Below are positions 42,520 to 57,311 of a stretch of 64,000 nucleotides of DNA, piece by piece. The stretch spans positions 17,640 to 81,639 of the forward strand of contig CADCVR010000102.1 of assembly GCA_902806205.1 (NCBI GenBank). Direction: 5' to 3'. The notes under the pieces are model-generated. The model searched no databases and was not told where the DNA came from. It worked only from the letters and a program-made list of their open reading frames with translations. The stretch comes from an uncultured Solirubrobacteraceae bacterium (GTDB lineage Bacteria; Actinomycetota; Thermoleophilia; Solirubrobacterales; Solirubrobacteraceae). Within the stretch, counting starts at the first letter, position 1; every line of letters starts with the position of its first letter. A program made the position numbers and the translations under genes.

Positions 42520-43608
42520 TCAGCAGATCCGCGGCAGCGGATCGCCGGCGAGCATGTCGACCACGCGGTTGCCACCGAAGGCGGTGTTCAGCAGCACCAT
42601 GCCCGGAGCCGTAGGGTCCTCCCGGAGCTCGCCGACGACCGCGGCGTCTCCGCCGAGCGGATGCCCACGCAGCGCGGCGAGCGCCGCCTCGACGCCGGCG
42701 GGGCCGACGACGGCCACGAGCTTGCCCTCGTTGGCGACGTACAGCGGGTCGATGCCGAGGATCTCACAGGCGCCGTGGACCTCCGGGCGGATCGGCAGCG
42801 CGGCCTCGTCGAGATCGACCGCGAGCTCCGTCGCGAGCGCCAGCTCGGCGAGGACCGTGGCCAGCCCCCCGCGCGTCGGGTCGCGGAGCCAGCGGACCTC
42901 GTCGGTGGCGTCGAGCAGGGCCGCCGTCAGCTCGTTGACCGAGGCGGTGTCGCTGCGCAGGTCGGTCTCCAGCTCGAGCTCGCCCCGGGCGACCATGATC
43001 GCCATCCCGTGATCGCCGAGGGTTCCCGAGACGATGACCTTGTCGCCGCTGCGCACCTGCTCCGGAGCGAGCACGATGTCACGCTCGTGCACGCCGACGC
43101 CCGCCGTGGTGATGTAGAGCCCGTCCGCCTTGCCGCGCTCGACGACCTTGGTGTCCCCGGTCACGATGGCGACTCCCGCCCGAGCGGCGGCGCCGGCCAT
43201 GGACTGGGCGATGCGCTCGAGTTCCGCGGTGGCCAGCCCCTCCTCGAGGATGAACGAGGCCGACAGCCACAGCGGACGGGCGCCGGCCATCGCCAGGTCG
43301 TTGACGGTGCCGTTGACCGCGAGCTCGCCGATGTCGCCGCCGGGGAAGAAGCGCGGCTTGACCACCGATGCGTCGGTGGTGAACGCCAGGCGCGGCGCCG
43401 TGCCCTCGACCTGCAACAGCGCCGAGTCGCCGAGCGCGTCGAGTGCCGGGTTGGTGAACGCCCGGCGGAAGACCATCTCGATCAGCGTGTGGGAGGACTT
43501 GCCGCCGGCACCGTGGGCCAGCGTGATCTGCTGGTCCATCAACTTGACGTGCGGGCGCCGGCGGCGACGCTCGATGGCGTCGAGGACGTCCTCCTCCGAA
43601 CGGCTCAC
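42520..43608 (-). CDS. hypE: Hydrogenase maturation protein HypE
   Basis: ITLAHGAGG, GGDIGELAVNGTVNDLAM, RDPTRGG, ANEGK, C-terminal LPRIC. Confidence 0.97.
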   Translation of the reverse strand: MSRSEEDVLDAIERRRRRPHVKLMDQQITLAHGAGGKSSHTLIEMVFRRAFTNPALDALGDSALLQVEGTAPRLAFTTDASVVKPRFFPGGDIGELAVNGTVNDLAMAGARPLWLSASFILEEGLATAELERIAQSMAGAAARAGVAIVTGDTKVVERGKADGLYITTAGVGVHERDIVLAPEQVRSGDKVIVSGTLGDHGMAIMVARGELELETDLRSDTASVNELTAALLDATDEVRWLRDPTRGGLATVLAELALATELAVDLDEAALPIRPEVHGACEILGIDPLYVANEGKLVAVVGPAGVEAALAALRGHPLGGDAAVVGELREDPTAPGMVLLNTAFGGNRVVDMLAGDPLPRIC

Positions 43609-44735
43609 GCGACGGAAGCCGGCTCGGGCGTGCGCCGTCCGGCGTGACGCCCGTAGTTGTAGTAGGCCGCGCAGGCGCCCTCGCTGGAGACCATGCACGT
43701 CCCGATGGGCCGATCCGGCGTGCACGAGGTCCCGAAGACCTTGCACTGCCAGGGCTTGATGACGCCCTTTAGGACCTCGCCGCACTGGCAGGCCTTGGGG
43801 TCGGCGACGCGCACGCCGGGAATGTCGTAGCGCACTTCCGCGTCCCAGACCGCGAGCTCGTCGCGAAGCTTCAGCGCGCTCTGGGAGATGAAGCCCAGCC
43901 CCCGCCACTCGAACGTCGTTCGCAGCTCCATCGTCTCGGCGATCGCCTTCAGCGCCAGGGGATTGCCCTCCTCGCGAACCACGCGCGAGTACTGGTTCTC
44001 CACCTCGGAGCGCCCCTCGGCGAGCTGGCGCATGAGCATGTAGACGCCCTGCAGGATGTCGAGCGGCTCGAATCCGGAGACCGCGATCGGCAGGTCGTAG
44101 TCCCGGCTGATGAACTCGTAGGGACGCGTCCCGATCACCGTCGAGACGTGGCCGGGCCCGATGAAGCCGTTGAGGCGCAGGTCGGGGGAGTCCAGGATCG
44201 AGCGGATCGCCGGGATGATCGTCACGTGGTTGGCGAAGAGCGAGAAGTTGGTGATCCCCTCCGCCCGAGCGCGCAGCAGGGTCACGGCCGTCGACGGGGT
44301 CGTCGTCTCGAAGCCGATGGCGAAGAAGACGACCTCGCGGTCCGGGTTCTCGCGCGCGATGCGCAGCGCGTCGAGCGGCGAGTAGACCATCCGCACGTCC
44401 GCTCCGCTGGCCTTGGCGTCGAGCAGCGACCCCTGGCTCGCGGGCACGCGCATCATGTCGCCGAAGGTCGTGAAGATGACTTCCGGGCGCTTGGCGATGG
44501 CGATGGCGTCGTCCTGGCGGCCCATCGGGATGACGCACACCGGGCATCCCGGTCCGTGCACCAGTTCGATCTCCGGCGGCAGGAGGTCCTCCACGCCGTG
44601 CTTGTAGATCGTGTGCGTGTGGCCGCCGCAGACCTCCATGAACTTGTAGTTGCGGCCGGGTTCGGCCAGCCCGGCGATCTGCTCGGCGACGCGCTTGGCC
44701 ACCTCTCCGGAACGGAACTCGTCGACGAATTTCAT
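43605..44735 (-). CDS. hypD: Hydrogenase maturation protein HypD
   Basis: MEVCGGHTH, GPGCPVC, GFETT, CMVSSEGAC. Confidence 0.98.
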   Translation of the reverse strand: MKFVDEFRSGEVAKRVAEQIAGLAEPGRNYKFMEVCGGHTHTIYKHGVEDLLPPEIELVHGPGCPVCVIPMGRQDDAIAIAKRPEVIFTTFGDMMRVPASQGSLLDAKASGADVRMVYSPLDALRIARENPDREVVFFAIGFETTTPSTAVTLLRARAEGITNFSLFANHVTIIPAIRSILDSPDLRLNGFIGPGHVSTVIGTRPYEFISRDYDLPIAVSGFEPLDILQGVYMLMRQLAEGRSEVENQYSRVVREEGNPLALKAIAETMELRTTFEWRGLGFISQSALKLRDELAVWDAEVRYDIPGVRVADPKACQCGEVLKGVIKPWQCKVFGTSCTPDRPIGTCMVSSEGACAAYYNYGRHAGRRTPEPASVA

Positions 44736-46090
44736 GTGGGGCTTCCTATCGCTTCGAGGATCAGGTGGTAGATCGTGGCCTGCGTCTCCTGCACGCGGGC
44801 CACGTCGTCGCTGGGCACCAGGAGCAGGTGGTCCAGCCAGTCGAATTCGCCGATCAACCCACCGGGGTGGGCGACGATCGCGCAGGTCTTCATCCCGCGA
44901 TGGTGGGCGGCGGCGAGCGCTTGCAGAAGGTTCTCGGACGACCCGTTCACCGAGAGGGCGATCGCGACGTCCCTGCTGTGTCCGAGGGTCGTGATCTGGC
45001 GGGCGAAGACGTTCTCGTAGCCGTCGTCGTCAGCCAGTGCCGTAACGGTGGCCGCGTCGTTGCCCAGCGCGAACGCGGTCCAGCCCTGGTTCAGCAGGTC
45101 GCCGGCGAAGTCCTGGGCGGCGGCGGCCGAGCCGCCGTTGCCGAACGTGAGCACGCGGCCGCCGGTCATCAGGCGCCTGCGGATCTTGCCCGCGCACCGT
45201 TCGATCTCGGCGACATCGAGTTCGCGCCTGAGCAGCAGGATCTCGCGTCCCTTCTGCGCGATCGACTCGCGGACGTCGCGGAGGGCCACGTCGATGTCGC
45301 GCTCGACGCGCTCGAGGAAGGGGTAGAGCGACGACGCGGGGACAGGGCCTTCCCCGGGGCCGGCGTCGAGGCGCTCGAGCGCCACGCCGGCGTGGCAGAG
45401 CAGGAGGTCACCCTGGGTGACTTCCTCGATCAGATCGCACGCGACATCTTCGCGGAGCCCGTCGATGTCGACGGTGGCGCCGTGCTCGGTCAGGGCGACG
45501 ACGCGGCCCGGGAGCGCGATGTCGCCGCAGGTGATGCAGGCCTCCTCGAGCAGTCCCGGGTGTTCGAAGAAGACCTGCACCAGCTCACACAGGAGCTGGT
45601 AGGCGACCTGCTGGACCTCTTGAACGACGTGGGGATCCGAGGAGTCGACCGTCAGCACGTGGTCGGCGCGGGGGGCCGTGCCCCCGGGGCCGACGAGCGC
45701 GACGGTCAGGGCGCCGCGCCGGGCGCCCGCGTCGAGAAAGGCGCGGGCGGGCTCGTCGACCGGCCCGTGCGTGAGGCTCAGGGCGATGTCGTCGCCCCCG
45801 AAGATCTGGGCACGCTGCGTCGCCCCCGTCGGATCGTTGGACGGCGCGAGCGCGGGAAACGAGCGCTTGCCGGCGACCGTGGGGTGCATGAGGGCGACGG
45901 CGACGCGCGCGGCGTCGGTCGCCGCGCTGGCGGACCCGTGGGCCAGCAGCACGCCGCCGCGGCCCAGGGACCGCGCGACGTCGTGGCAGGCGCGCGTGAG
46001 GCGCTCGCCGTGCTCGTCGAGGAAAGCGCTGAGCGCCCTCTCGCGATCGACCAGACGGGCGGTGAAGGGCGTGACGCCAGCCGCCGTCAC
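44732..46090 (-). CDS. Triple fusion: GmhA-like SIS domain, HypC/HupF-like domain, GmhA-like SIS domain
   Basis: N-terminal SIS (ALMHPTVAGKRSFPAL, VQEVQQVAY); central CITCGD...DLLLCHAGVAL; C-terminal SIS (FGNGGS, ALGND, SVNGSSEN, RVQETQ); no stop between them; GTGA overlap with hypC. Confidence 0.8.
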   Translation of the reverse strand: MTAAGVTPFTARLVDRERALSAFLDEHGERLTRACHDVARSLGRGGVLLAHGSASAATDAARVAVALMHPTVAGKRSFPALAPSNDPTGATQRAQIFGGDDIALSLTHGPVDEPARAFLDAGARRGALTVALVGPGGTAPRADHVLTVDSSDPHVVQEVQQVAYQLLCELVQVFFEHPGLLEEACITCGDIALPGRVVALTEHGATVDIDGLREDVACDLIEEVTQGDLLLCHAGVALERLDAGPGEGPVPASSLYPFLERVERDIDVALRDVRESIAQKGREILLLRRELDVAEIERCAGKIRRRLMTGGRVLTFGNGGSAAAAQDFAGDLLNQGWTAFALGNDAATVTALADDDGYENVFARQITTLGHSRDVAIALSVNGSSENLLQALAAAHHRGMKTCAIVAHPGGLIGEFDWLDHLLLVPSDDVARVQETQATIYHLILEAIGSPT

Positions 46091-46365
46091 TCGATCTTGC
46101 TCCCCTCGAGCTCGGCGAGCTCCTCGTGCCAGGGGTCGCCCAACTGGATCAGGAACTCCAGCGTCGACTTCGCCTCCTCCTCGTCGATCTTCGACATGGC
46201 GAAGCCGACGTGGATGAGGACCCAGTCCCCGACGTCGACGGCGTCCGGACCGTCGGCCAACAGGCCGACGTTGACCGCGCGGCGGACGCCGGAGACCTCG
46301 GCCTTGGCGATGTTGGTCTTCACGTCGACCCACTCGATGATCTGTCCGGGGATTCCTAGGCACAT
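46087..46365 (-). CDS. hypC: Hydrogenase chaperone HypC
   Basis: MCLGIPG, GDWVLIHVGFAM; AAGGAG RBS. Confidence 0.97.
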   Translation of the reverse strand: MCLGIPGQIIEWVDVKTNIAKAEVSGVRRAVNVGLLADGPDAVDVGDWVLIHVGFAMSKIDEEEAKSTLEFLIQLGDPWHEELAELEGSKIE

Positions 46366-46490
46366 GGTGTTCTCCTTGCCGCGATCGCGGCCTGTCCGAA
46401 GCTGATCCCGGCATCGTCGCGCGAGATGTTGGAAAAGGGGGCCTTCTGAGACTAGGACCACGCGCAAGCCATGGTTCGGGTCACATGGTA

Positions 46491-47402: not shown

Positions 47403-47419
47403 TGTGTATGGTCGCCACA
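47403..47419. promoter_or_regulatory. Candidate operator motif, copy 2 (TGTGTATGGTCGCCACA)
   Basis: GGTGTG-N9-CACACC inverted repeat 65 bp upstream of hydrogenase pair 1. Confidence 0.45.
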
Positions 47420-47484: not shown

Positions 47485-48783
47485 ATGTCTTACGACGAAG
47501 TGGCAGCAGACCCCCTGAGCAACCCGGTCGGGGGCCCGGACCCTGACGACAACATCATCCACCTCTTCTGGCTCCAGGGCATGGGCTGCGACGGATGTAC
47601 CACGGCGCTGCTGGCGGCCAACCGTCCCTCCTTGGAGGAGATGGTGCTGGGAACCGTGCCTCGCATCCCGCGGATCATCCTGCACCACCCGATGCTCGAC
47701 GACGACTCCGGTCCCGATTTCATGAGCGCGTACCGGCAGGCCGTCGAGGGAACGCTGGGAGCGCCGTACGTCGTGGTGCTCGAGGGGTCGATCCCCGACG
47801 ATCAGAGCTTCCCGGGGGAGGGATACTTCGCGGCACTGGGTGTCGCCGCCGACGCCCCGCAGGGAATGCGCGCCACCGGGCGCCCGGACCAGCCGCTGCG
47901 CGTCAGCGACTGGGCGTGGGCGATGGCCCGCCGCGCAGAGGCCTGCTTCTCGATCGGCACGTGCGCCACCTGGGGCGGCATCCCGGCGGCCGCGGGCAAC
48001 ATCACCGGTTCCATGGGCTTCATGGACTACCTGGGCAGGGAGTATCGCTCGGCCCGGGGGTTGCCCGTCGTCAACGTTCCGGGGTGCGCTCCGATCGGCG
48101 ACAACTTCACCGAGACCCTGATGCAGGTGCTGTTGTATTTCGACGGGGCCGTGAAGCTGCCGGAGTTCGACGAACTCGGCCGTCCCGAGTGGATGTTCGC
48201 CGAGACGGTGCACCGGCACTGCATGAAGGCCGGGTACTACGAGGAGGGCGTGTTCGCCCACGAGCCCGGCGACAACGAGTGCCTCGTCGAGATCGGCTGC
48301 TGGGGTCCGGTGGTGCAGTGCAACATCACCGAGCGCGGCGCGATCAACCACACGGGTGGCTGCATGATCGCGGGCGGGGCGTGCATCGGCTGCACGATGC
48401 CCGGTTTCCCGGACAAGTACAGCCCGTTCTACAAGGCGCCTCCGGGCTCGGCGGTCTCGGGCACCGTCTCGCGGATCTACGGCGGTGGCATCCGCCGGCT
48501 GCGCCGCCTGTCGATGACGGCCGGCAACCACACGCCGATCTGGGACCGCGCTGACCACATCCCCTCCGCCTGGGGGATCGCCGCAGGCCAGAAGACGCCA
48601 GCCCAGAAGGTCAACGCGTACTTCTACAAGAAGTTGCAGTACAAGGGCACCGTCAACCACTCCGCGCGCAACAAGAAGCAGCCGCAGCCCGGGAGCCGTG
48701 ACATCCTCAAGCAGAAGGGCGTCGACATGAGCGCGAGCGTCCCCGTGCTGGGCGAACGGGTCGTCACCCGGGAGGAGCTGTGA
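47485..48783 (+). CDS. [NiFe]-hydrogenase small subunit, paralog 1 (group 1l-like, no Tat signal)
   Basis: CDGC, GTCATWGG, PGCAP proximal; HRHC...ECL...GC distal; QC...GGC...CIGC medial. Confidence 0.95.
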   Translation: MSYDEVAADPLSNPVGGPDPDDNIIHLFWLQGMGCDGCTTALLAANRPSLEEMVLGTVPRIPRIILHHPMLDDDSGPDFMSAYRQAVEGTLGAPYVVVLEGSIPDDQSFPGEGYFAALGVAADAPQGMRATGRPDQPLRVSDWAWAMARRAEACFSIGTCATWGGIPAAAGNITGSMGFMDYLGREYRSARGLPVVNVPGCAPIGDNFTETLMQVLLYFDGAVKLPEFDELGRPEWMFAETVHRHCMKAGYYEEGVFAHEPGDNECLVEIGCWGPVVQCNITERGAINHTGGCMIAGGACIGCTMPGFPDKYSPFYKAPPGSAVSGTVSRIYGGGIRRLRRLSMTAGNHTPIWDRADHIPSAWGIAAGQKTPAQKVNAYFYKKLQYKGTVNHSARNKKQPQPGSRDILKQKGVDMSASVPVLGERVVTREEL

Positions 48784-50477
48784 TGCACGCCGTGAGCCAG
48801 CAGGGCGCCGGTCAGCTGCGGCGCATCGACTTCGATCCCGTGGCCCGGGTGGCAGGTGGCCTCGCTCTGCGCACGGTGGTCGACACCGAGCGTTTCGAGG
48901 TCGTCGAGGCCAGCATGCTGGCCACGATGTACCGCGGCTACGAGGTGCTCCTCCGTGGCCGCGACCCGCGCGACGCGGTCTTCGTCTCCAGCCGCGCGTG
49001 CGGCGTCTGCGGCGGTGCGCACGCATGGACGTCCGCGCTGGCGTGCGAGATGGCCTACGGCTCTGCCCCGCCCGCCATGGGCATCGTGGCGCGCAACTGG
49101 CTCTCGGCGCTCGAGGATCTCTGCGACCTGCCGCACCACCTCTTCCAGCGCGCCGGCCCGGACTTCTCCGAGCCGCTCGTGCGCCAGACCAGTCCCGAGC
49201 TGTGGGCGCGTGCGCAACAGACCCCGGCAGCCAACGTCGCGACGCACGGGTACGGCCTGGTGTCGGAGATCATGACGGCGATGACGCCGTTCAGGGGCGG
49301 CCTCTACCGCAGGGCGCTGGAGCTGACGCGCGTCGCCAAAGAGGCCTACGGGCTCGTGGGTGGCAAGCATCCGCACCCCCAGACGACCACGCCCGCCGGG
49401 GTCAGTGCGCTGATCGACCCCTCCGACCGGAACCTGACGTTGCTGCGGATCGACAAGTTCCTGGACTACAGTCGCGAGGTGGCGGCGGTCTGGGACGATC
49501 TCGCCGATTTCTTCCTCACGGCCGATCCCCGCTACGCCGACGTGGGCGCCGGGCCGAAGAACTTCTTCGATTTCGGCCGGTGGGACGACCCGTTCGCCTA
49601 CGATGCCACGTTCGAGAACGCCCCGGTCTGGGGTGAGCGGCGCTGGTCGACTCCCGGCGTGATCGTCGACGGGCGATTGCGGACCACGAATCTCCACCAG
49701 ATCGACGGCGGCGTCGAGGAGTTCGTCGACCGCTCCTTCTACGAGGACTGGAGTGCCGACGGGGGCGTCTACGCCACGGACCCGGCGGGCAACAACGTGT
49801 CCGCCCGCCATCCCTGGAACAAGGAGACACTCCCGCAGCCGGGCGGCCCCAACCTCAACGGGCAGTACTCGTGGTCGACCGCGCCGCGCTGGGACCGCCT
49901 CGCGATGGAGACCGGTGCCGGCGCGCGCATGTGGATCACCGCGATGGCGCGCAAGCAGCCTCACTCACGGTTTGTCGAGTCGACGGGCCACAGCCTCGTC
50001 ATGCACATGCCCCAGGCCGCGCTGCCGGAGGCGACGCTCGAGTGGCTGGTGCCCGAGCGCTGGAATGCGTTCGAGCGCAATCGGGCGCGGGCGTACTCGC
50101 TCGTCCATTCGACGCTCGTCGCCTACGAGAACGTCTTGATCGGCTACGACCTCGCCCGCATCGGGGGCCCCGACGCCCGGACCTTCACCGAGTACGAGAT
50201 CCCCAAGGGCGGCGTCGTCGGCGTGGGCTACTGGGGCGGCCCCCGCGGTGCCATCAGCCATCACATGGAGATCGACAACCGCGTGATCCGCAACTACCAG
50301 ATCCTCGCCGGCTCCACGTTCAACGCCTCGCCGATGGACCCGTTCGGCACTCCCGGACCGTGCGAGGCGGCGGTGATGGGCACGCCGCTTCTCAGTACGC
50401 GGCAGCCCGAGCGGTACCTCGACGCGATGCGTGCCGTCCGCAGCTTCGATCCCTGCATGTCCTGCGCGACGCACTGA
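48783..50477 (+). CDS. [NiFe]-hydrogenase large subunit, paralog 1, lacking C-terminal extension
   Basis: L1 RACGVCGGAH, GPRG canopy Arg, L2 FDPCMSCATH followed directly by TGA. Confidence 0.95.
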   Translation: MHAVSQQGAGQLRRIDFDPVARVAGGLALRTVVDTERFEVVEASMLATMYRGYEVLLRGRDPRDAVFVSSRACGVCGGAHAWTSALACEMAYGSAPPAMGIVARNWLSALEDLCDLPHHLFQRAGPDFSEPLVRQTSPELWARAQQTPAANVATHGYGLVSEIMTAMTPFRGGLYRRALELTRVAKEAYGLVGGKHPHPQTTTPAGVSALIDPSDRNLTLLRIDKFLDYSREVAAVWDDLADFFLTADPRYADVGAGPKNFFDFGRWDDPFAYDATFENAPVWGERRWSTPGVIVDGRLRTTNLHQIDGGVEEFVDRSFYEDWSADGGVYATDPAGNNVSARHPWNKETLPQPGGPNLNGQYSWSTAPRWDRLAMETGAGARMWITAMARKQPHSRFVESTGHSLVMHMPQAALPEATLEWLVPERWNAFERNRARAYSLVHSTLVAYENVLIGYDLARIGGPDARTFTEYEIPKGGVVGVGYWGGPRGAISHHMEIDNRVIRNYQILAGSTFNASPMDPFGTPGPCEAAVMGTPLLSTRQPERYLDAMRAVRSFDPCMSCATH

Positions 50478-50491
50478 GGCGGGCCAAGCGG

Positions 50492-50517
50492 CGACGGGTG
50501 ACCGCGGTCACCCGTCG
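50492..50517. terminator. Perfect 26-bp palindrome between convergent genes
   Basis: CGACGGGTGACCGCGGTCACCCGTCG equals its own reverse complement. Confidence 0.6.
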
Positions 50518-51095
50518 GCCTCGGGTACGGCCTCTTCGGGAAGCGCCTCCTCGCAGGCCCGGACGAAGAAGCCGTACAGCCAAGGCCGCTTGAGCTCGGC
50601 GGGGTCCCCCTCGACGGGGCCCTCGAGCTCGCGGAGGTAGTCCTCGATCGTGCGTCGCGCCAGGAAGTGGCGCACGTGGCCGCCGGGGCCCGGGACACGC
50701 CAGCTCTTCGCGAGCTCGTCGTCGGGACTCGGCTTGCCGAGCGGCTCCGACCGGGCTATGTCGCCGCACGCCTCCGCGATGGCTTGCGGCCAGTTCCCTG
50801 CCCTCGCGTGGTACTCGCGCAGCATCTCCGGGATCCAGTCAGCGGGCCGGCGGGCGGGCTCGAAGTACTCCGCCTCGACGAGGCGGCTCAGGTATCCGGC
50901 CTGGCGCAGGCGGTTGTCCAGATCGAACGGATTGTCGCCGGCGAGCGTCTGGTCGCGCGTCTCCAGCACCTCGGCGATGAATCCGGGTGGTCGCTCGCCG
51001 CGCCGCTCCTCGACGCGCGCGAAGACGGCTTCGACCAGCGTCTGCATGACCAGCCCGGTGTCGACGGGAAGCAGCCCGCCGGGTTCGCTCATCAT
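50508..51095 (-). CDS. Hypothetical helical protein between the two hydrogenase pairs
   Basis: 195-aa ORF with typical codon style; no family recognised. Confidence 0.75.
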   Translation of the reverse strand: MMSEPGGLLPVDTGLVMQTLVEAVFARVEERRGERPPGFIAEVLETRDQTLAGDNPFDLDNRLRQAGYLSRLVEAEYFEPARRPADWIPEMLREYHARAGNWPQAIAEACGDIARSEPLGKPSPDDELAKSWRVPGPGGHVRHFLARRTIEDYLRELEGPVEGDPAELKRPWLYGFFVRACEEALPEEAVPEADG

Positions 51096-51183: not shown

Positions 51184-51200
51184 TGTGTAGTATGCACACA
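51184..51200. promoter_or_regulatory. Candidate operator motif, copy 3 (TGTGTAGTATGCACACA)
   Basis: TGTGT-N7-ACACA palindrome 31 bp upstream of hydrogenase pair 2. Confidence 0.45.
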
Positions 51201-51231: not shown

Positions 51232-52581
51232 ATGGCCCCTGTTAGGGATGCCCGCGGGAACGAGATGCGTCTGCAGACGGTGCCGCACGGCGGCGGCGTC
51301 TTCGGAGCTAACCGACAGCCCGGTCTGGGCGGTCACGGAGGAAGCCCGAACGGACCGCTGAACGAGGTTCACGTCTTCTGGATCGCCGGCATGAGCTGCG
51401 ACGGCTGCACGATCGCCGCAAGCGGTGCCACCAACCCCTCGGTCGAGGACCTGCTGCTCGGCCGCATCCCCAACCTGCCGAAGGTGATCCTGCATCACCC
51501 CGTGCTCTCCCCGGGAGCCGGCACGGAGTTCATCCGGCCCTTCAAGCAGGCCGTCAACGGCGAGCTCGGAGCGCCCTACGTCGTGGTGCTGGAGGGCTCC
51601 GTCCCCGACGACCAGGCCTTCCCGTCCGACATCGGCTACTTCTCGGCGATGGGCGCGGGCGGCTTCGACCCCGAGTCCGAGACCGATCAGCCCAACCGCG
51701 TGACGGACTGGCTGTGGAAGCTCGCACCCGGAGCCGCCGCATACGTCGCCATCGGCACGTGCGCGACATGGGGCGGGATCCCGGCCGCCGCGGGCAACAT
51801 CACCGGCTCGATGAGCCTGACGGACTACTTGGGCCAGGACTACCGCTCCGCCCTGGGCGTGCCGGTCGTCAACGTTCCGGGCTGCGCACCCGTCGGCGAC
51901 AACTTCACCGAGACGGTCGCGGCCGTGCTCATGTTCCTGCAGAACCTCGCGCCGGTGCCGAAGTTCGACGAGTTGGGCCGTCCGGCGTGGCTCTTCGGCG
52001 AGACCGTGCACCGTCACTGCCCCAAGGCGGGCTACTATGAGGAGGGCGTCTTCGCCGAGGAGTTCGGCGACAACGAGTGCCTCGTGGAGATCGGCTGCTG
52101 GGGCCCGGTGGTGCAGTGCAACATCACCGAGCGCGGCGCGATCAACCACATGGGTGGCTGCATGGTCGCGGGTGGCCCCTGCATCGGCTGCACCATGCCC
52201 GGCTTCCCGGACAAGTACAGCCCGTTTCTGAAGGCGCCCCCAGGCTCCTCTATCTCCGGGGGGATCTCCAAGGTCACCGGTGGCGGGATCCGGCGCCTGC
52301 GTCGCCTGTCGATGAAGAAGGGCAACCGCACCGGAGTCTGGGACAACGCCCACGAGGTGCCGTCCGGCTGGGGCCGTGCGCACGGAGACAAGGGCCCGGT
52401 CGACAAGGCCAACGGGTTCTTCTACGAGAAGCTGCAGTACCGCGGCTCGGTCAACCACGCCAAGCGCAACAAGAGGCAGCCGCTGCCCCAGAGCCGCGAT
52501 ATCCTGAGACAGAAGGGCGTTGACCTCACCGCGAGCGTCGATGTACTTGGCGAACGGGTCAAGACCCGGGAGGAGCTGTAA
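51232..52581 (+). CDS. hylS: [NiFe]-hydrogenase small subunit, group 1l-type
   Basis: AGMSCDGC; full Cys/His set for three Fe-S clusters; GGGAGGAG RBS; no twin-Arg signal. Confidence 0.9.
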   Translation: MAPVRDARGNEMRLQTVPHGGGVFGANRQPGLGGHGGSPNGPLNEVHVFWIAGMSCDGCTIAASGATNPSVEDLLLGRIPNLPKVILHHPVLSPGAGTEFIRPFKQAVNGELGAPYVVVLEGSVPDDQAFPSDIGYFSAMGAGGFDPESETDQPNRVTDWLWKLAPGAAAYVAIGTCATWGGIPAAAGNITGSMSLTDYLGQDYRSALGVPVVNVPGCAPVGDNFTETVAAVLMFLQNLAPVPKFDELGRPAWLFGETVHRHCPKAGYYEEGVFAEEFGDNECLVEIGCWGPVVQCNITERGAINHMGGCMVAGGPCIGCTMPGFPDKYSPFLKAPPGSSISGGISKVTGGGIRRLRRLSMKKGNRTGVWDNAHEVPSGWGRAHGDKGPVDKANGFFYEKLQYRGSVNHAKRNKRQPLPQSRDILRQKGVDLTASVDVLGERVKTREEL

Positions 52582-52584
52582 ACC

Positions 52585-54504
52585 ATGTGCTTCAAGAATC
52601 TGCCGATCGAGTTCGATTCGCAGGGCAACGCGACGCTGAAGCAGGGCGTCGCAAACCCCTACACCTACACCGAGACGCCGGCGCCCACGCCCATCGAGGA
52701 CGATCCGGAGCGGATGCGGGAGCTGTTTGCGCGCAACGGTGCGATCCGGCGCGTCGACTTCGACCCGGTGACCCGCGTCGCGGGAGCGCTCGCCTTCCAC
52801 ACGGTGGTCGATCTCGACAGTCGTGAGGTGCTCGAGACCGCCTCGATGGCGACCCTGTTCCGTGGCTACGAGGTCATCCTCCAGGGCCGTGATCCGCGCG
52901 ATGCGATCAACATCTCCAGCCGGGCCTGCGGCGTGTGCGGCGGCGTGCACGCCACGACGTCCGCCCTGGCGTGCGAGATGGCCTTCGGCATCTCGCCGCC
53001 GCCGATGGGCGTCGTGGCGCGCAACCTGCTGCTCTCGACGGAGTACCTCTACGACCATCCGATCCACTTGTCGCTGCTCGCCGGTCCGGACTTCTCCGAG
53101 GAGGCGGTGCGCGAGACCAACCCGGAGATCTGGACGCGCGCCGAGAACACGCGCACTCAGGGCCGTGAGGTGCACGGCTATGAGTTCATGTCGGAGCTGA
53201 TGACCGACCTGACGCCGCTGACCGGCAAGCTGTACCTCGAGGGCCTGTACTACACGCGTCTCGCGCGCGAGGCGTACGTGCTCATCGGCGGCAAGTACCC
53301 TCACCCGCACACGGTCGTGCCCGGCGGCGTCAGCACGACGATCGACCCCTCCGACCTCAACGAGATCATGCTGCGGGTGGTCAAGTACTTCGACTACGGC
53401 CGCAAGACCGTGGCCATCTGGAACGACATCGCGGAGTTCTTCTACGACGTCAACCCGAAGTACAAGGACATCGGGACCCGTCCGAAGAACATGGTCGAGC
53501 CCGGCCAGTGGGACGATCCGTTCGCCTACGACGCCAGCTATGAGAACTGCGACGACTGGGGCCGCCGGCGCTGGGCGACCCCCGGCGTGCTCGTCGACGG
53601 AGAGCTCGTCACCACGAGCCTGCAGATGGTCAACGCGGGCGTCGAGGAGTTCGTCGAGCACGCCTTCTACGAGGAGTGGACCGGCAACGGCTCCGGCAAC
53701 GAGTACTACAAGTTCCCGACCGATCCGGCCGGCAACCCGTTGTCGCCGTACCACCCGTGGAACAAGGAGACGATCCCCAAGCCGACCGCGACCAGCTGGA
53801 AGGAGAAGTACTCCTGGTCGACGGCCCCTCGCTGGGATCGCATGGCGATGGAGACGGGGGCCTACTCGCGGATCTGGACGGCGGCGATGACGCCGAACTA
53901 CCGTCAGAGCAACTACATCGAGCCCACCGGGCACAGCCTCAAGATCCACCTGCCCAAGGCCTCGCTGCCCAACACCGAGATCGAGTGGAAGATTCCCGAG
54001 GTCTGGGGTGCCTTCGAGCGCAATCGCGCGCGCGCCTACTGCATCCTGTACACGGCGGCCATCGCGTACGACAACCTCCTGCTGGCCTACGACCTGCTGC
54101 GCAAGGGCGGGCCGGACGCCAAGATGTCGACGCCGTTCAAGGTGCCGAAGGATCACCGCATCGGCGTCGGGTTGTGGAGCGCCGGCCGCGGCTATCTGAC
54201 CCATCACATGGAGATCGACAAGGGCGTCATCAAGAACTACCAGATCCTGACCCCCTCGACGTGGATGGCGTCGCCGAAGGACCCCTTCGGCAACCCGGGG
54301 CCCTACGAGGAGGCGGTCATGGCCACGCCGCTGCTGGAGAACTACGAGAAGCCCGAGGACTTCAAGGGCATCGACGTGCTCCGGGCGATCCGCAGCTTCG
54401 ACCCGTGCATGCCGTGCACCACGCACATCCACTCCGACGACCGGACGATCACCCGCGAGATCATCAGCTGCGCATGCGGCGCGACCGGAGACCATGAGCA
54501 CTAG
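52585..54504 (+). CDS. hylL: [NiFe]-hydrogenase large subunit, group 1l-type, with 25-aa cleavable extension
   Basis: MCFKNLPIEFD N-terminus, L1 RACGVCGGVH, L2 FDPCMPCTTH plus IHSDDRTITREIISCACGATGDHEH. Confidence 0.9.
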   Translation: MCFKNLPIEFDSQGNATLKQGVANPYTYTETPAPTPIEDDPERMRELFARNGAIRRVDFDPVTRVAGALAFHTVVDLDSREVLETASMATLFRGYEVILQGRDPRDAINISSRACGVCGGVHATTSALACEMAFGISPPPMGVVARNLLLSTEYLYDHPIHLSLLAGPDFSEEAVRETNPEIWTRAENTRTQGREVHGYEFMSELMTDLTPLTGKLYLEGLYYTRLAREAYVLIGGKYPHPHTVVPGGVSTTIDPSDLNEIMLRVVKYFDYGRKTVAIWNDIAEFFYDVNPKYKDIGTRPKNMVEPGQWDDPFAYDASYENCDDWGRRRWATPGVLVDGELVTTSLQMVNAGVEEFVEHAFYEEWTGNGSGNEYYKFPTDPAGNPLSPYHPWNKETIPKPTATSWKEKYSWSTAPRWDRMAMETGAYSRIWTAAMTPNYRQSNYIEPTGHSLKIHLPKASLPNTEIEWKIPEVWGAFERNRARAYCILYTAAIAYDNLLLAYDLLRKGGPDAKMSTPFKVPKDHRIGVGLWSAGRGYLTHHMEIDKGVIKNYQILTPSTWMASPKDPFGNPGPYEEAVMATPLLENYEKPEDFKGIDVLRAIRSFDPCMPCTTHIHSDDRTITREIISCACGATGDHEH

Positions 54505-54543: not shown

Positions 54544-55017
54544 GTGCGCGTGCTCGTCTGCGGGGTCGGCTACCGGTTTCTGCGCGACGGGGCGCTCGGT
54601 CCCTACATGTCAGACACCCTGTCGGCGCGTGCCACCGAGCGGGTGGAGGTCGAGGACCTCGGCTACCACCCGGTCGGTTTCACGCAGAACTTGCAGGAGC
54701 GGCCGGACTACGATCGGATCGTGTTCGTGGCCGCGGTCGATCGCGGTCGCGCGCCCGGGACGATCAAGGCGTATCGCTATGATCATTGCCTGCCCTCCTC
54801 CAAAGAGGTCCAAGAGCGTGTCGGCGACTCCGTGACAGGTTCGATCTCGCTGGACAACCTGCTGATCGTCTCTGAGGCGTTCAAGGCGCTGCCCGACGAC
54901 GTCTGGGTCGTGGAGGTCGAGCCGGCCGACGAGACCTGGGGCGAGGGGTTCAGTCCCATCGTCGAGGCGAAGCTGCCGGAGATCACGGAGACCATATGGA
55001 ATTTGACCAAGCCGTAG
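54544..55017 (+). CDS. Hydrogenase maturation protease-like protein, degenerate metal site
   Basis: VLVCGVGYRFLRDGALG, IVFVAAVDRGRAPG, WGEGFSP; HybD/HycI-fold pattern with substitutions. Confidence 0.8.
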   Translation: MRVLVCGVGYRFLRDGALGPYMSDTLSARATERVEVEDLGYHPVGFTQNLQERPDYDRIVFVAAVDRGRAPGTIKAYRYDHCLPSSKEVQERVGDSVTGSISLDNLLIVSEAFKALPDDVWVVEVEPADETWGEGFSPIVEAKLPEITETIWNLTKP

Positions 55018-55943
55018 CTGAATTGGACACCCTCGTCGGGACCCTCGAACGGGAGGGCGACACGCGGGCGCTGATGCTGCTCGATCTGATGGACGCCGTG
55101 CACCGGCCCGCGCTCGAGCTGATCGTGGCCGGCGACTCCCGCCACCCCGTGGCGCACGCCCTGCTCTCCATGTACGACCTCGCGCCGCTCGACGAGTACG
55201 TGCAGGTCGAGGAGGCGCTCGACGAGATCCGCCCCTACATCGAGTCGCACGGCGGCGGCCTGGACCTGCTCGATGTCGAGGCGGACGAGGGCATCGTCCA
55301 CGTACGCCTGCACGGCTCGTGCCACGGATGCGCGGGCTCGGCGATCACCCTGCGGCGCGGCGTGGAGGAGAAGCTTCGCGAGCGTCTGGACTGGTTCACC
55401 GGGGTCGTCGCCCACGAGGACGACGACGCCGCCGAGACGGCGGAGGGACCGGAGGACGGCATCGCCGCCAAGCTGCTGAAGATCGAGCACTTCAACAGCG
55501 ACATCAAGGCTGCAGGACCCCTTTTGCCGAGTGCTCCCGTCGGCGCGGCCGGTCAGCCGGCCGACCCTTCCGGCGGCACCCTGCTGCAGATCGAGGGCAT
55601 CCGTCGAGAGAAGGTCGGCAGGCCGGTGTTCGTCGAGGCCGGCGCGCTCGCCGACCTGCCGCCGGGCGGGTCGAAGGCCGTCGACGTCGACGGGAACTCG
55701 ATCCTCATCATCAACGTCGACGGCGAGCCGTACGCGTTTCGGAACGTCTGCCCCGTCGACGGGCGGTCGGAGCTCTACGGCGGACACGTCACGGGCTCCG
55801 TCATCGTCTGTCCGTGGCACAACTGCGCCTACGACGCGCGCTCCGGCAAGCGCGTGGACGACCAGCCCCAGGAACCCGCGCTGGCGGTGGTGCCGATCGC
55901 GGTCCACGACGGCATGCTGCAGGTGGCGGCGAACGTCGCGTGA
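54996..55943 (+). CDS. NifU-like plus Rieske-like Fe-S protein (HhyE/HucE-like)
   Basis: IRPYIESHGG...GSCHGC NifU motif; CPV...CPWH Rieske-like motif. Confidence 0.85.
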   Translation: MEFDQAVAELDTLVGTLEREGDTRALMLLDLMDAVHRPALELIVAGDSRHPVAHALLSMYDLAPLDEYVQVEEALDEIRPYIESHGGGLDLLDVEADEGIVHVRLHGSCHGCAGSAITLRRGVEEKLRERLDWFTGVVAHEDDDAAETAEGPEDGIAAKLLKIEHFNSDIKAAGPLLPSAPVGAAGQPADPSGGTLLQIEGIRREKVGRPVFVEAGALADLPPGGSKAVDVDGNSILIINVDGEPYAFRNVCPVDGRSELYGGHVTGSVIVCPWHNCAYDARSGKRVDDQPQEPALAVVPIAVHDGMLQVAANVA

Positions 55944-56431
55944 GCACCGCGATCCCCTCCGAGGCGCCGGGCGTCCGCGCCCGGCGCGTGCTCGTCGCGG
56001 GCGTCGGGAACGTTCTTCGAGGCGACGACGGGTTCGGGCCGGCGGTGACCGAAATGCTCGGTGACCTCCCCGAGGGCGCAGACGTCGTGGAGACGGGGAT
56101 CGGTGGCATCGCCCTTCTGCAGGAGTTGATGCGGGGCTACGACGGCCTGATCCTGATCGACGCGGTCGAGCGTGGCGCCGACCCGGGAACCGTCTTTCTC
56201 ATAGAACCGGAGGTCGACATGGGTGTCCACGTCCCGGACATCCACCTCGCCAACCCGCACCGTGTGCTGTCGATGGCCAAGACAATGGGGGTGCTGCCCG
56301 CCCGGGTGGTGATCGTCGGCTGTCAGCCGCTGGACGTCGAGGAGATGTGCCAGGGGCTCTCCCCGCCGGTGCAGCGTGCTCTCGCCCCCGCCGTTACCAG
56401 GATTCAGGAGATCGTCGATGAATGGCTTTGA
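55940..56431 (+). CDS. Hydrogenase maturation endopeptidase (HybD/HupD family), intact
   Basis: GVGNVLRGDDGFG, LIDAV, DIHLANP. Confidence 0.92.
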   Translation: MSTAIPSEAPGVRARRVLVAGVGNVLRGDDGFGPAVTEMLGDLPEGADVVETGIGGIALLQELMRGYDGLILIDAVERGADPGTVFLIEPEVDMGVHVPDIHLANPHRVLSMAKTMGVLPARVVIVGCQPLDVEEMCQGLSPPVQRALAPAVTRIQEIVDEWL

Positions 56432-57311
56432 CTCAATCGCGGAGATGCGCCAAGCGCTCGCCGGGCAGCGCTACCTGGCCGACGAGGGCCTGGCGACCGT
56501 GGCGTTTCTCGCCTTGCGGCTTCGACGCCCTCTGCTCGTGGAAGGTGAGCCCGGCGTCGGGAAGACCGAGCTTGCGAAGGCCCTTGCGGCGGCCACCGGC
56601 GCACCGCTCATCCGCCTGCAGTGCTATGAGGGGATCGATGTCCACCAGGCGCTGTACGACTGGGACTACCCCCGGCAGCTGCTGCAGTTGCGCGCGGGGG
56701 GATCCGCGCCGCTGTACTCCGAGGAGTTCATGCTCCGCAGGCCGCTGCTCGAGGCGCTCGCCTCCGATCCGGCGCGCCCCGCCGTGCTGCTGATCGACGA
56801 GCTCGATCGCGCCGACGACGAGTTCGAAGCGTTCCTGCTCGAGTTCCTGTCCGACTTTCAGGTGACGATCCCCGAGCTCGGAGTCATCAAGGCCGCGGCG
56901 CCGCCGACCGTGATCATCACGTCGAACCGCACCCGCGACCTGCATGAGGCACTCAAGCGCCGCTGCCTGTACCACTGGATCGACCACCCCGACCTCGCTC
57001 GAGAGGTGGCGATCGCCCGCGCTCGCCTGCCCCACATCAGCGAGCGCCTCACCACCCAGGTGTGCAGCTTCGTCCATGAGCTGCGGTTCCTGGACCTCTA
57101 CCGCTCACCCGGGGTGGGCGAGACCCTCGACTGGGCCGAGGCCTTCCACGTCCTGGGGCGCCAGCAGATGGACGCTTCCACGGCCGACCGGACGCTCGGC
57201 ACGCTGCTCAAGGAGCGCGACGACATCGAGCGCATCCGTGGCAAGCCGGTGGAGGCGCTGATCGACCGCGCCAATGGCGTCCCGAAGGATGGAGCCAGCG
57301 GTGACCATTAA
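56418..57311 (+). CDS. MoxR-family AAA+ ATPase (CoxD-like)
   Basis: GEPGVGKT, RLQCYEG, LLIDELDRAD, TSNRTRDLHEALKRRC. Confidence 0.93.
   Translation: MNGFDSIAEMRQALAGQRYLADEGLATVAFLALRLRRPLLVEGEPGVGKTELAKALAAATGAPLIRLQCYEGIDVHQALYDWDYPRQLLQLRAGGSAPLYSEEFMLRRPLLEALASDPARPAVLLIDELDRADDEFEAFLLEFLSDFQVTIPELGVIKAAAPPTVIITSNRTRDLHEALKRRCLYHWIDHPDLAREVAIARARLPHISERLTTQVCSFVHELRFLDLYRSPGVGETLDWAEAFHVLGRQQMDASTADRTLGTLLKERDDIERIRGKPVEALIDRANGVPKDGASGDH

What the first reader, a model, noticed from the sequence alone, without database searches (positions are those of the whole stretch)
47485..50477. Second, diverged group 1l-like hydrogenase whose large subunit has no cleavable C-terminal peptide (candidate unprocessed or sensory enzyme)
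Seen: the large subunit keeps all four Ni-Fe cysteines (RACGVC, DPCMSC) and the canopy Arg, but ends ...FDPCMSCATH-TGA. The codons after the stop (GGPSGDG*) show no trace of the neighbour's extension, and it also lacks the ~45-aa MCFKNLP N-terminal segment. The neighbouring paralog has a 25-aa extension. Known: group 1 uptake enzymes are normally matured by endopeptidase cleavage after this His; genetically processed large subunits are typical of H2 sensors (group 2b) and some group 4 enzymes. Inference: a duplicated atmospheric-H2 hydrogenase that became protease-independent, possibly a new H2 sensor or an alternative-kinetics isoenzyme. I know of no description of this within group 1l.
Basis: partly seen in the sequence, partly recalled or inferred. 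Interest (0 to 1): 0.9.

Follow-up and report, generated by a model that had tools for sequence, protein, structure and literature searches.

The report
Hydrogenase twin made without cleavable tail
This soil actinobacterium carries, next to its normal air-hydrogen-scavenging enzyme, a conserved second copy that is made at its final length (no tail for a protease to cut) and has a charged arginine at the gas-channel gate, a variant of the group 1l hydrogenases that I could not find described in the papers searched.

Summary
The large subunit (48780/48783-50477) keeps all four Ni-Fe cysteines and the canopy Arg. It ends ...DPCMSCATH-TGA and lacks the neighbour's ~41-45-aa N-terminal segment and 25-aa C-terminal extension.

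The stop is not an error. All 100 members of one well-supported clade (100/99) end exactly at this His. The clade is nested inside actinobacterial group 1l. The gene pair lies in the same place, upstream of the canonical Hyl operon, in 10 related loci (the 11th, L095, has lost the long operon). In a 121-genome family sample it occurs only in genomes that also have the canonical enzyme (4 of 6 versus 0 of 115).

It is under purifying selection (omega 0.075 versus 0.029 for the neighbour). All 11 Fe-S cysteines of the small subunit are kept, and its electron-exit domain and tail match the neighbour's.

New here: 96% of the clade has Arg in place of the otherwise invariant gas-channel gate Leu (D. 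fructosovorans L122, the position that is Phe in H2 sensors).

Best reading: a functional, protease-independent companion hydrogenase that shares the canonical enzyme's partners. A sensor role is possible but has no kinase partner. No paper found describes it.

The parts
47403..47419 (.). Palindrome TGTGTATGGTCGCCACA (TGTG-N9-CACA), 66 bp upstream of the short small-subunit ATG. Candidate shared operator.
   Evidence: this pattern occurs at only two places in the 64-kb window, here and at 51184-51200 (expected 0.5 matches). It is partly conserved upstream of the same genes in L090, L091 and L093.
47485..48783 (+). Small subunit of the short (extension-less) hydrogenase, 432 aa, with no Tat signal.
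   Evidence: Pfam PF01058 + PF14720. All 11 Fe-S cysteine columns are conserved in 9/9 clade members, and the proximal motif is CxxC as in 1l, not CxxD as in 1h. It is 66% identical to the neighbour's small subunit. Consensus identity is 95% in the medial/distal cluster domain and 76% in the C-terminal tail. Omega is 0.058.
48780..50477 (+). Large subunit of the short hydrogenase (565 aa from GTG 48780, 564 aa from ATG 48783). It ends at H565, with TGA at 50475-50477.
   Evidence: The best solved relative is mature HofG, 5aa5_C (E 1.7e-129). The AlphaFold model (pLDDT 81.8, pTM 0.88) matches 5aa5 at TM 0.90-0.91. The clade of 100 extension-less sequences has support 100/99. Omega is 0.075.
49149..49151 (+). 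Codon CGC for Arg124. This is the gas-channel gate position (second L1 Cys + 47), equivalent to D. fructosovorans Leu122 and the sensor Phe110.
   Evidence: Arg in 96/100 of the clade. Leu in 33/33 long actinobacterial 1l, 45/45 other 1l and 22/23 1h sequences. The ungapped alignment to 4kl8 pairs it with the Leu of HFYHL. The role of the position is described in PMC11023054.
50492..50517 (.). Perfect 26-nt palindrome (13-nt arms), 15 nt after the large-subunit stop and overlapping the end of the convergent gene. Terminator-like hairpin that separates the short operon from the long one.
   Evidence: and the sequence.
50511..51095 (-). Conserved ~195-aa gene of unknown function, convergent with the short large subunit. 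It has an invariant WRVPGPGGHVRH motif.
   Evidence: Found at the same position in every locus with the short form. Distant homologues (37-43%) occur in long-only loci L005, L008 and L042. No Pfam or NCBIfam hit. The model is a confident all-helical fold (pLDDT 87.7) with no PDB match.
51184..51200 (.). Second copy of the TGTG-N9-CACA palindrome, 32 bp upstream of the likely start (51232) of the long small subunit.
51232..52581 (+). Small subunit of the canonical (long) group 1l-type hydrogenase. The ORF is open from 51124.
52585..54504 (+). Large subunit of the canonical enzyme, 639 aa. It has the MCFKNLP N-terminal segment, Leu165 at the gate, and a 25-aa C-terminal extension with a conserved R...CxC.
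54544..56431 (+). Three genes that serve the long enzyme: a degenerate HycI-like protein (54544-55017), a NifU-Rieske protein (54996-55943) and an intact HycI-type endopeptidase (55940-56431).
   Evidence: The same trio follows the long large subunit in L090-L092 and L094 and in 1l loci of other phyla.
56376..58587 (+). AAA+ ATPase and CoxE-like VWA protein, downstream members of the long operon.
   Evidence: Syntenic in related loci.
42520..46414 (-). hypE, hypD and a SIS-HypC-SIS fusion, transcribed divergently. This is the cofactor-assembly machinery available to both enzymes.
   Evidence: The same arrangement is seen in L003 and L095.

Best explanation
The pair 47485-50477 encodes a conserved, functional second hydrogenase, here called 'Hyl2', of the actinobacterial group 1l type.

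Origin. It arose once, by tandem duplication of the canonical hylSL genes in Thermoleophilia-type Actinomycetota. It then changed in this order: (1) it lost the C-terminal extension, so the large subunit is translated at mature length and ends at the His; (2) the gas-channel gate Leu was replaced by Arg; (3) the N-terminal MCFKNLP segment eroded.

How it most likely works. The Hyp proteins load the NiFe(CN)2CO cofactor without the proteolytic checkpoint, as in other naturally extension-less large subunits. The small subunit carries three Fe-S clusters. Electrons leave through an exit domain and C-terminal tail that are held to the same sequence as in the canonical enzyme, so they go to the same partner: the NifU-Rieske protein and/or the small membrane proteins of the long operon. 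On this reading it is a companion isoenzyme that depends on the canonical system. Its gas access, and so its kinetics or inhibitor tolerance, is altered by the gate Arg.

Shown: conservation, single origin, synteny, co-occurrence with the canonical enzyme, purifying selection, retained metal ligands, and the gate substitution.

Inferred: protease-independent maturation, catalytic activity, a shared electron acceptor, and the kinetic effect of the Arg.
For: - Conserved stop: 100/100 clade members end at the His.
- Single origin: the clade has support 100* in FastTree on 201 sequences and 100/99 in IQ-TREE C20-PMSF on 70 sequences. It sits inside a 100/100 actinobacterial 1l clade.
- Order of events: the first-branching member, P0114, keeps Leu at the gate and a long N-terminus. 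Other early members (P0016, P0025, P0038) keep a recognisable N-extension.
- Synteny: the order short S-L, convergent unknown gene, long S-L, protease-like, NifU/Rieske, protease, AAA, VWA is seen in L002, L003, L090-L092 and L094; L001, L006 and L093 are cut off after the long small or large subunit.
- Co-divergence: the codon trees of the short and long large subunits are nearly congruent.
- Co-occurrence: in 121 genomes of the family, the long form is in 6 and the short form in 4 of those 6. The short form is in none of the other 115.
- Selection: omega is 0.075 (large subunit) and 0.058 (small subunit), against 0.029 and 0.033 for the canonical genes in the same genomes.
- Ligands: C74 in 99, C77 in 98, C559 in 98, C562 in 100, H565 in 98 and canopy R489 in 99 of 100 sequences. 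All 11 Fe-S cysteines are present in 9/9 small subunits.
- Electron exit: small-subunit consensus identity between short and long forms is 95% in the medial/distal domain and 76% in the tail.
- Fold: the model matches mature HofG (5aa5) at TM 0.90-0.91.
- Shared upstream palindrome before both operons.
- Precedent: an extension is not essential for cofactor insertion (title and abstract of PMC7294309, listed).
Against: - No activity, expression or maturation data exist.
- Arg at the gate could block gas access so strongly that the protein is a poor catalyst. That would fit a sensor better.
- The gene evolves about 2.5 times faster than its neighbour (59-72% versus 84-88% identity to the window across the same genomes).
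- Otherwise invariant residues near the C-terminus have changed (Y528, E539, G546, P561).
- dS is probably near saturation at these divergences, so the omega values are approximate.
- The shared palindrome is only partly conserved in relatives.
- Two of the six genomes with the canonical enzyme lack a detectable short form, so it is dispensable. Those two genomes are 81% and 89% complete.
Confidence: 0.58

Rival explanations
1. It is an H2 sensor (regulatory hydrogenase) recruited from a group 1l enzyme. On this reading it is a low-turnover, O2-indifferent H2-binding module whose redox state controls expression or activity of the adjacent canonical Hyl operon.
For: - It has the two hallmark traits of the known sensors. 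It lacks a C-terminal extension, and it has a bulkier residue at the gas-channel gate (Arg124 at the Leu122/Phe110 position). Both size and charge at this site slow diffusion by orders of magnitude in D. fructosovorans (PMC11023054).
- It is always adjacent to, and found only with, an energy-conserving hydrogenase.
- It is a separate transcription unit ended by a hairpin.
- It evolves faster, as expected for a lowly expressed gene.
- PadR-family regulators lie divergently upstream in L090-L093.
Against: - No histidine kinase, PAS protein or other signalling partner is conserved with it. The window has none next to it.
- The PadR/CooC-like cluster is absent from the window, L003 and L095.
- The small subunit's electron-exit domain and tail are constrained to the canonical sequence. 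This argues for the same acceptor, not a dedicated transducer.
- The residue equivalent to V74 stays Val (92%), not Ile as in sensors.
- In the window both operons carry the same upstream palindrome.
- It is not in group 2.
Confidence: 0.25
2. It is a non-autonomous partner of the canonical enzyme: a subunit pair that joins mixed oligomers with HylSL, or that acts as a scaffold or chaperone during its assembly. On this reading it has little catalytic role of its own.
For: - It strictly depends on the presence of the long form.
- The small-subunit tail, which mediates oligomer or partner contacts in related enzymes, is conserved between the two forms.
- Where the long operon is deleted (L095), the short large subunit has lost Ni-binding cysteines.
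Against: A pure scaffold would not need all four Ni-Fe cysteines, the canopy Arg and 11 Fe-S cysteines kept at 98-100%. There are no data on oligomers.
Confidence: 0.12
3. It is an artefact or a decaying copy. The stop is a sequencing error or a recent nonsense mutation in a gene drifting to a pseudogene.
For: - It evolves faster than the neighbour.
- Two related clusters (P0087, P0120) have lost Ni-binding cysteines.
Against: - The stop directly after the His is conserved in 100 clusters from many samples.
- Omega is 0.075.
- Ligands are conserved at 98-100%.
- The decayed pair is a single sublineage in which the whole system is being lost.
Confidence: 0.02

Closest known systems
Group 1l [NiFe]-hydrogenase (HylSL of Hymenobacter roseosalivarius and soil MAGs; Ortiz et al., bioRxiv 10.1101/2020.08.06.239558; PMC13554262)
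   Same: - The large subunit is nested in the 1l clade (100/100). It is 45-63% identical to 1l loci and 38-41% identical to 1h loci.
- The proximal cluster motif is CxxC.
- It is cytosolic, with no Tat signal.
- It shares a locus with the NifU/Rieske (HylE-like) protein, the endopeptidases and the small single-TM genes.
   Different: - It has no C-terminal extension and no MCFKNLP N-terminal segment.
- Arg replaces Leu at the gas-channel gate.
- The S and L genes are adjacent and overlapping, not separated by HylTM1-5.
- It has no protease or Rieske gene of its own.
- It is found only as a second copy beside a canonical enzyme.
Group 1m [NiFe]-hydrogenase (HhmSL; Ray et al. 2022, PMC9561532)
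   Same: - It is restricted to Actinobacteriota.
- The small and large subunit genes are adjacent.
- The cluster holds a HybD-type peptidase, an Fe-S assembly protein and small single-TM proteins. CooC-type ATPases are also present, seen upstream of the short pair in L090-L094.
   Different: - That paper does not mention an extension-less paralogue or a tandem pair.
- I could not map the window's proteins onto their sequences, because the hhmL sheet is cut in the stored supplement. Whether 'short', 'long' or both would be called 1m is open.
Regulatory H2-sensing hydrogenases (HoxBC of Cupriavidus necator, HupUV of Rhodobacter capsulatus)
   Same: - The large subunit is made without a C-terminal extension.
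- It has a bulkier residue at the Leu122-equivalent gate position.
- It is encoded beside an energy-conserving uptake hydrogenase.
   Different: - It belongs to a different phylogenetic group (group 2).
- The sensor gate pair is Ile/Phe, not Val/Arg.
- Sensors work with a histidine kinase (HoxJ/HupT), which is absent here.
- Here the small-subunit tail copies that of the neighbouring enzyme.
Group 1h/5 actinobacterial-type hydrogenase (HofKG/HhySL; PDB 5AA5)
   Same: It is the closest solved structure (E 1.7e-129; model TM 0.90-0.91). It is a cytosolic, O2-insensitive type. A canonical 1h enzyme is also present in this genome at C79:35843-37645.
   Different: - Only 38-41% identity.
- 1h has a CxxD proximal ligand, Ile at the V74 site, Leu at the gate and a 20-28-aa cleavable extension.

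Membership tests
Group 1l [NiFe]-hydrogenase (Hyl) | The large subunit falls in the 1l clade, separate from 1h (less than about 40% identity between the two groups). | tested here: met
   IQ-TREE gives 100/100 for the 1l versus 1h split, with the short clade inside 1l. Identity is 38-41% to 1h loci and 45-63% to 1l loci.
Group 1l [NiFe]-hydrogenase (Hyl) | A substituted proximal-cluster ligand relative to 1h (Cys where 1h has Asp). | tested here: met
   CxxC in 9/9 short, 9/9 long and 10/10 other 1l small subunits. CxxD in 6/6 1h small subunits.
Group 1l [NiFe]-hydrogenase (Hyl) | Five short transmembrane genes (HylTM1-5) between the small and large subunit genes. | tested here: not met
   The S and L genes overlap by 1-4 nt. 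Small unannotated genes lie downstream of the long operon instead (gene calls in L090-L094). Many non-actinobacterial 1l loci do show the ~1.5-kb S..L gap.
Group 1l [NiFe]-hydrogenase (Hyl) | A large-subunit precursor with a C-terminal extension, and a cluster-encoded endopeptidase (HupD). | tested here: not met
   The extension is 0 residues in 100/100 of the clade. The proteases belong to the adjacent long operon.
Group 1l [NiFe]-hydrogenase (Hyl) | High-affinity, O2-insensitive oxidation of atmospheric H2. | not testable with these tools
   This needs enzyme or whole-cell kinetics.
Group 1m [NiFe]-hydrogenase (Hhm, Ray et al. 2022) | Actinobacterial, with adjacent S/L genes. The cluster holds a peptidase, an Fe-S assembly protein, a CooC-type ATPase and small TM proteins. 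| tested here: inconclusive
   Adjacency and actinobacterial origin are met. CooC-like genes are seen in L090-L094 but not in the window. TPR, BirA and DUF1059 genes were not seen.
Regulatory (H2-sensing) [NiFe]-hydrogenases | The large subunit lacks a C-terminal extension. | tested here: met
Regulatory (H2-sensing) [NiFe]-hydrogenases | A narrowed gas channel: Ile/Phe at the V74/L122 positions. | tested here: inconclusive
   The L122 position is Arg in 96% of the clade. The V74 position stays Val in 92%. The effect of Arg is not known.
Regulatory (H2-sensing) [NiFe]-hydrogenases | A cognate histidine kinase and response regulator (HoxJ/HoxA, HupT/HupR) encoded with it. | tested here: not met
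   There are none in the window around the locus, and no such gene is conserved across the related loci.
Regulatory (H2-sensing) [NiFe]-hydrogenases | Phylogenetic placement in group 2. | tested here: not met
   It is nested in group 1l. Group 2a HucL is a far weaker hit (E 5e-33) than 1h HofG.

The most novel reading that the evidence does not exclude
The short pair is the first H2-sensing or regulatory hydrogenase to have evolved from a group 1 high-affinity enzyme. On this reading the Arg-gated, protease-independent module reports trace H2, or the redox state of the Hyl electron path, and so controls the atmospheric-H2 oxidation system of desert-soil Thermoleophilia without a classical two-component partner.
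Probability: 0.22. Interest if true: 0.85.

Novelty: new variant of a known kind. Interest (0 to 1): 0.62.

Why it matters
- Maturation. Group 1 uptake hydrogenases are textbook examples of maturation that ends with endopeptidase cleavage. Here a whole natural clade of a group 1 enzyme has dispensed with that step. The residues that became free to vary afterwards (Y528, E539, G546, P561) point to the surface that serves the extension or the protease in the canonical enzymes.
- Gas channel. An Arg fixed at the gas-channel gate is a natural experiment on a position that has been engineered for years to tune gas access.
- Regulation. How atmospheric-H2 oxidation is regulated in Actinobacteria is unknown, and this pair is a concrete candidate to test.
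- Ecology. Thermoleophilia are among the most abundant desert-soil bacteria, and 'group 1l' gene counts are used to estimate the share of cells that oxidise H2 (for example 82-83% in arid soils, PMC8528921). Genomes with two 1l-type large subunits per cell would inflate such estimates if the copies are not told apart.

Tried and rejected
- Sequencing error or nonsense mutation: rejected by the conserved stop.
- Pseudogene or relaxed selection: rejected by omega 0.075/0.058 and by ligand conservation. dS may be saturated, so I rely on the contrast with the neighbour and on site conservation, not on absolute values.
- The degenerate HycI-like gene (54544-55017) as a dedicated chaperone of the extension-less subunit: rejected. 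The arrangement protease-like, NifU/Rieske, protease also occurs in 1l loci of other phyla that have no short form.
- The convergent gene (P0125) as a signalling partner: no support. It has no family hit. Its confident fold has no PDB match. Homologues also occur in long-only loci.
- Shared operator: the palindrome lies upstream of both operons in the window but is only partly conserved elsewhere. I treat it as weak evidence.
- Mapping to 'group 1m': the stored supplement lacks the hhmL sequences, so this is unresolved.
- HydDB classification was not available. The group assignment rests on my trees, on identities and on the proximal-ligand motif.
- The position of the short clade relative to subclades of the long actinobacterial forms is unresolved: 84 in FastTree and a polytomy in IQ-TREE.
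Full report
**What is there**

The window (71% G+C) holds a hydrogenase island.
- On the minus strand are hypE, hypD and a SIS-HypC-SIS fusion (42520-46414).
- On the plus strand come first a small/large subunit pair (47485-48783; 48780 or 48783-50477).
- A convergent gene of unknown function follows on the minus strand (50511-51095).
- A second small/large pair follows (51232-52581; 52585-54504).
- After it come a degenerate HycI-like gene, a NifU-Rieske gene, an intact HycI-type endopeptidase, an AAA+ ATPase and a CoxE-type VWA protein.

The first large subunit has the L1 motif RACGVC (C74, C77), the canopy Arg (R489) and the L2 motif DPCMSCATH. H565 is followed directly by TGA at 50475-50477. 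The second large subunit begins MCFKNLP and has 25 residues after the His.

**The stop is a trait of a clade, not a lesion**

- A search of the 5.8-billion-protein collection returned 120 top clusters. About 85 are 550-600 residues long and end exactly at C..C..H. The MCFKNLP forms carry 21-32 extra residues with a conserved R...CxC.
- With the large subunits taken from 80 genome loci, I had 100 extension-less and 101 extension-bearing sequences.
- In a 201-sequence FastTree the extension-less sequences form a single clade with support 100*. In a 70-sequence IQ-TREE (LG+C20 PMSF) the support is 100/99.
- The clade lies inside a 100/100 clade of actinobacterial MCFKNLP enzymes. That clade in turn lies inside the sequences that are 45-63% identical to the query and come from Bacteroidota, Chloroflexota, Gemmatimonadota and others, many with the ~1.5-kb gap between the S and L genes.
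- The 38-41% identical Streptomyces, Mycobacterium and Terriglobia enzymes form the outgroup.
- The small subunits show CxxC at the proximal cluster where the outgroup has CxxD.
- Taken with the published definition (under 40% identity between 1h and 1l, and a changed proximal ligand), both window enzymes are group 1l-type.
- The genome also has a canonical 1h enzyme with its own protease on contig C79.

**Context and inheritance**

- The short pair sits immediately upstream of a canonical pair in L001, L002, L003, L006 and L090-L094, on contigs of up to 3.8 Mb.
- In all of these the convergent unknown gene lies between the two pairs (frameshifted in L090).
- The named sources are Thermoleophilaceae, Solirubrobacteraceae and Solirubrobacterales MAGs. 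The window's long subunit is 90-91% identical to that of a Solirubrobacterales MAG.
- Codon trees of the short and long large subunits from the same seven genomes are nearly congruent. The duplication is therefore old and the two have travelled together.
- In a sample of 121 genomes of the window's family, the canonical C-terminus (CMPCTTH) occurs in six. The extension-less C-terminus occurs in four of those six and in none of the other 115.
- The one locus where the long operon is gone is L095, where only a 117-aa fragment remains. It is also the lineage in which the short large subunit has lost Ni-binding cysteines (C77S, C559S).
- The short enzyme therefore appears to depend on the canonical system.

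**Is it functional?**

Under a codon model (GY+F3X4+G4) on the same genomes, omega values are:

| Gene | Short form | Long form |
|---|---|---|
| Large subunit | 0.075 | 0.029 |
| Small subunit | 0.058 | 0.033 |

- Selection is clearly purifying, though about 2.5-fold weaker than on the neighbour. This matches the identities to the window: 59-72% for short large subunits against 84-88% for long ones.
- Among 100 clade members, C74 is kept in 99, C77 in 98, C559 in 98, C562 in 100, H565 in 98 and R489 in 99.
- All 11 Fe-S cysteine columns are kept in 9/9 small subunits.
- The AlphaFold model (pLDDT 81.8, pTM 0.88) superposes on mature HofG (5aa5) at TM 0.90-0.91.
- This is a metal-loaded redox protein, not a relic.

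**What changed**

I compared 100 short, 33 long actinobacterial, 45 other 1l and 23 1h sequences.
- The most striking clade-specific change is at residue 124. It is Arg in 96% of the clade and Leu in every other 1l sequence and in 22/23 1h sequences.
- The position is the second L1 cysteine plus 47. In the ungapped alignment to 4kl8 it pairs with the Leu of HFYHL.
- It is therefore the Leu122 of the D. fructosovorans enzyme. With Val74 (the residue before the second cysteine) that Leu forms the bottleneck of the gas channel. H2 sensors have Ile and Phe at these two sites, and both the size and the charge of the side chains change diffusion rates by orders of magnitude (PMC11023054).
- The V74 equivalent stays Val here (92%).
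- The first-branching clade member, P0114, still has Leu and a long N-terminus. The order of events was therefore loss of the extension, then Leu to Arg, then erosion of the N-terminal segment.
- Several residues that are invariant in all extension-bearing 1l and 1h enzymes became variable in the clade: Y528, E539, G546 and P561, all near the C-terminus. My inference is that they served the extension or protease docking and lost that constraint.
- Cys2 of MCFKNLP and the CxC of the extension are invariant in the actinobacterial long 1l enzymes (Cys2 91% in other 1l) and are both absent from the clade. This holds even in members that keep an otherwise recognisable N-segment, such as MVFENLP and MSFEKPP. 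It hints that these cysteines work together in the canonical precursor.

**Mechanism: enzyme or sensor?**

Points in favour of a sensor:
- No extension.
- A bulkier gate residue.
- Obligate association with an energy-conserving enzyme.
- A separate transcription unit, ended by a perfect 26-nt palindrome 15 nt after the stop.
- Faster evolution.

Points against a sensor:
- No kinase or other transducer is conserved with it.
- The convergent gene has homologues in long-only loci and a fold with no match.
- The small subunit is held to the canonical sequence exactly where electrons leave. Consensus identity is 95% in the medial/distal cluster domain and 76% in the 117-residue C-terminal tail, against 67% around the proximal cluster.
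- In the window the same TGTG-N9-CACA palindrome precedes both operons and occurs nowhere else in 64 kb. It is only partly conserved in relatives.

I therefore favour a companion isoenzyme that is matured without the protease, has altered gas access, and feeds the same acceptor as the canonical enzyme (confidence about 0.58). A sensor role comes second (about 0.25). A non-catalytic assembly or oligomer partner comes third (about 0.12).

**Comparison with what is known**

- The literature tool found the definition of group 1l, its ecology in deserts and the proposal of an actinobacterial 'group 1m' with adjacent S/L genes and CooC-type ATPases.
- None of these papers mentions an extension-less paralogue, a tandem pair or an Arg at the gate.
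- No NCBIfam model reaches its cut-off on either subunit.
- Earlier notes of this scan on other genomes describe canonical 1l loci only.
- I class it as a new variant of a known kind.

**Limits**

- There was no HydDB run.
- The omega values may be affected by saturated dS.
- The co-occurrence counts rest on exact DNA patterns, which miss divergent C-termini. G491 was found only with the looser pattern.
- The orientation of Arg124 in the protein is not known.

Noticed in passing
window 52588-52590 (Cys2 of MCFKNLP) and 54469-54477 (CAC of the C-terminal extension): In the actinobacterial long 1l large subunits, the N-terminal Cys2 and the R...CxC motif in the C-terminal extension are invariant (Cys2 91% in other 1l), and 1h lacks both. 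The extension-less clade has lost both, even where the rest of the N-segment survives. This suggests a Cys-based (metal?) site formed by the two ends of the canonical precursor.
   Followed up: partly
window 50511-51095 (-): A conserved ~195-aa protein with an invariant WRVPGPGGHVRH motif lies between the two hydrogenase operons. The model is a confident all-helical fold (pLDDT 87.7, pTM 0.87). It has no PDB fold match and no Pfam or NCBIfam family. Distant homologues occur in long-only loci.
   Followed up: partly
window 47403-47419 and 51184-51200: The palindrome TGTG-N9-CACA occurs only at these two places in 64 kb. Each lies just upstream of a hydrogenase small-subunit gene. Similar sites are found upstream of the same genes in L090, L091 and L093 but not in all relatives.
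   Followed up: partly
L095:8678-14400: This locus shows the system decaying. The short large subunit has C77S and C559S (motif NPSMSCATH). The long operon has been replaced by a Tricorn-like protease gene and an SBP gene, leaving a 117-aa large-subunit fragment.
   Followed up: partly
L096:6227-7741 (G313, another family of the same class): This is a second, unrelated extension-less large subunit (ends FDPCLACSIH-TGA). It is a prototypical Desulfovibrio-like group 1 enzyme (E 5e-135 to 1yrq/1frf). The same C-terminus is present in 8 sampled genomes of that family. Extension-less group 1 large subunits may be more common than assumed.
   Followed up: partly
window 54544-55017 and 55940-56431: Two HycI-type genes flank the NifU-Rieske gene. 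The first scores only 25-27 bits and the second 64 bits. The same trio is present in 1l loci of Chloroflexota, Acidimicrobiales, Gemmatimonadota and others, so it is a general 1l feature and not linked to the short enzyme.
   Followed up: partly
window 46689-47225 (+): A small ORF upstream of the short operon shows coding-type GC3 and has an internal repeat (DLAAAIADH[KQ].LARARR, twice). It has no family hit. Among the fetched loci it is conserved only in L093.
   Followed up: partly
L090-L094, upstream of the short small subunit: A divergent cluster of two or three CbiA/CooC-like ATPases, with one or two PadR-family regulators in L090-L093 (none called in L094), precedes the short operon in these relatives. 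In the window, L003 and L095 the hyp genes occupy that place instead.
   Followed up: no
G000 contig C79:31600-44400: This is the third hydrogenase of the genome: a canonical group 1h enzyme with a 21-aa extension, its own hypCDE genes, its own protease and a NifU/Rieske-like gene.
   Followed up: partly
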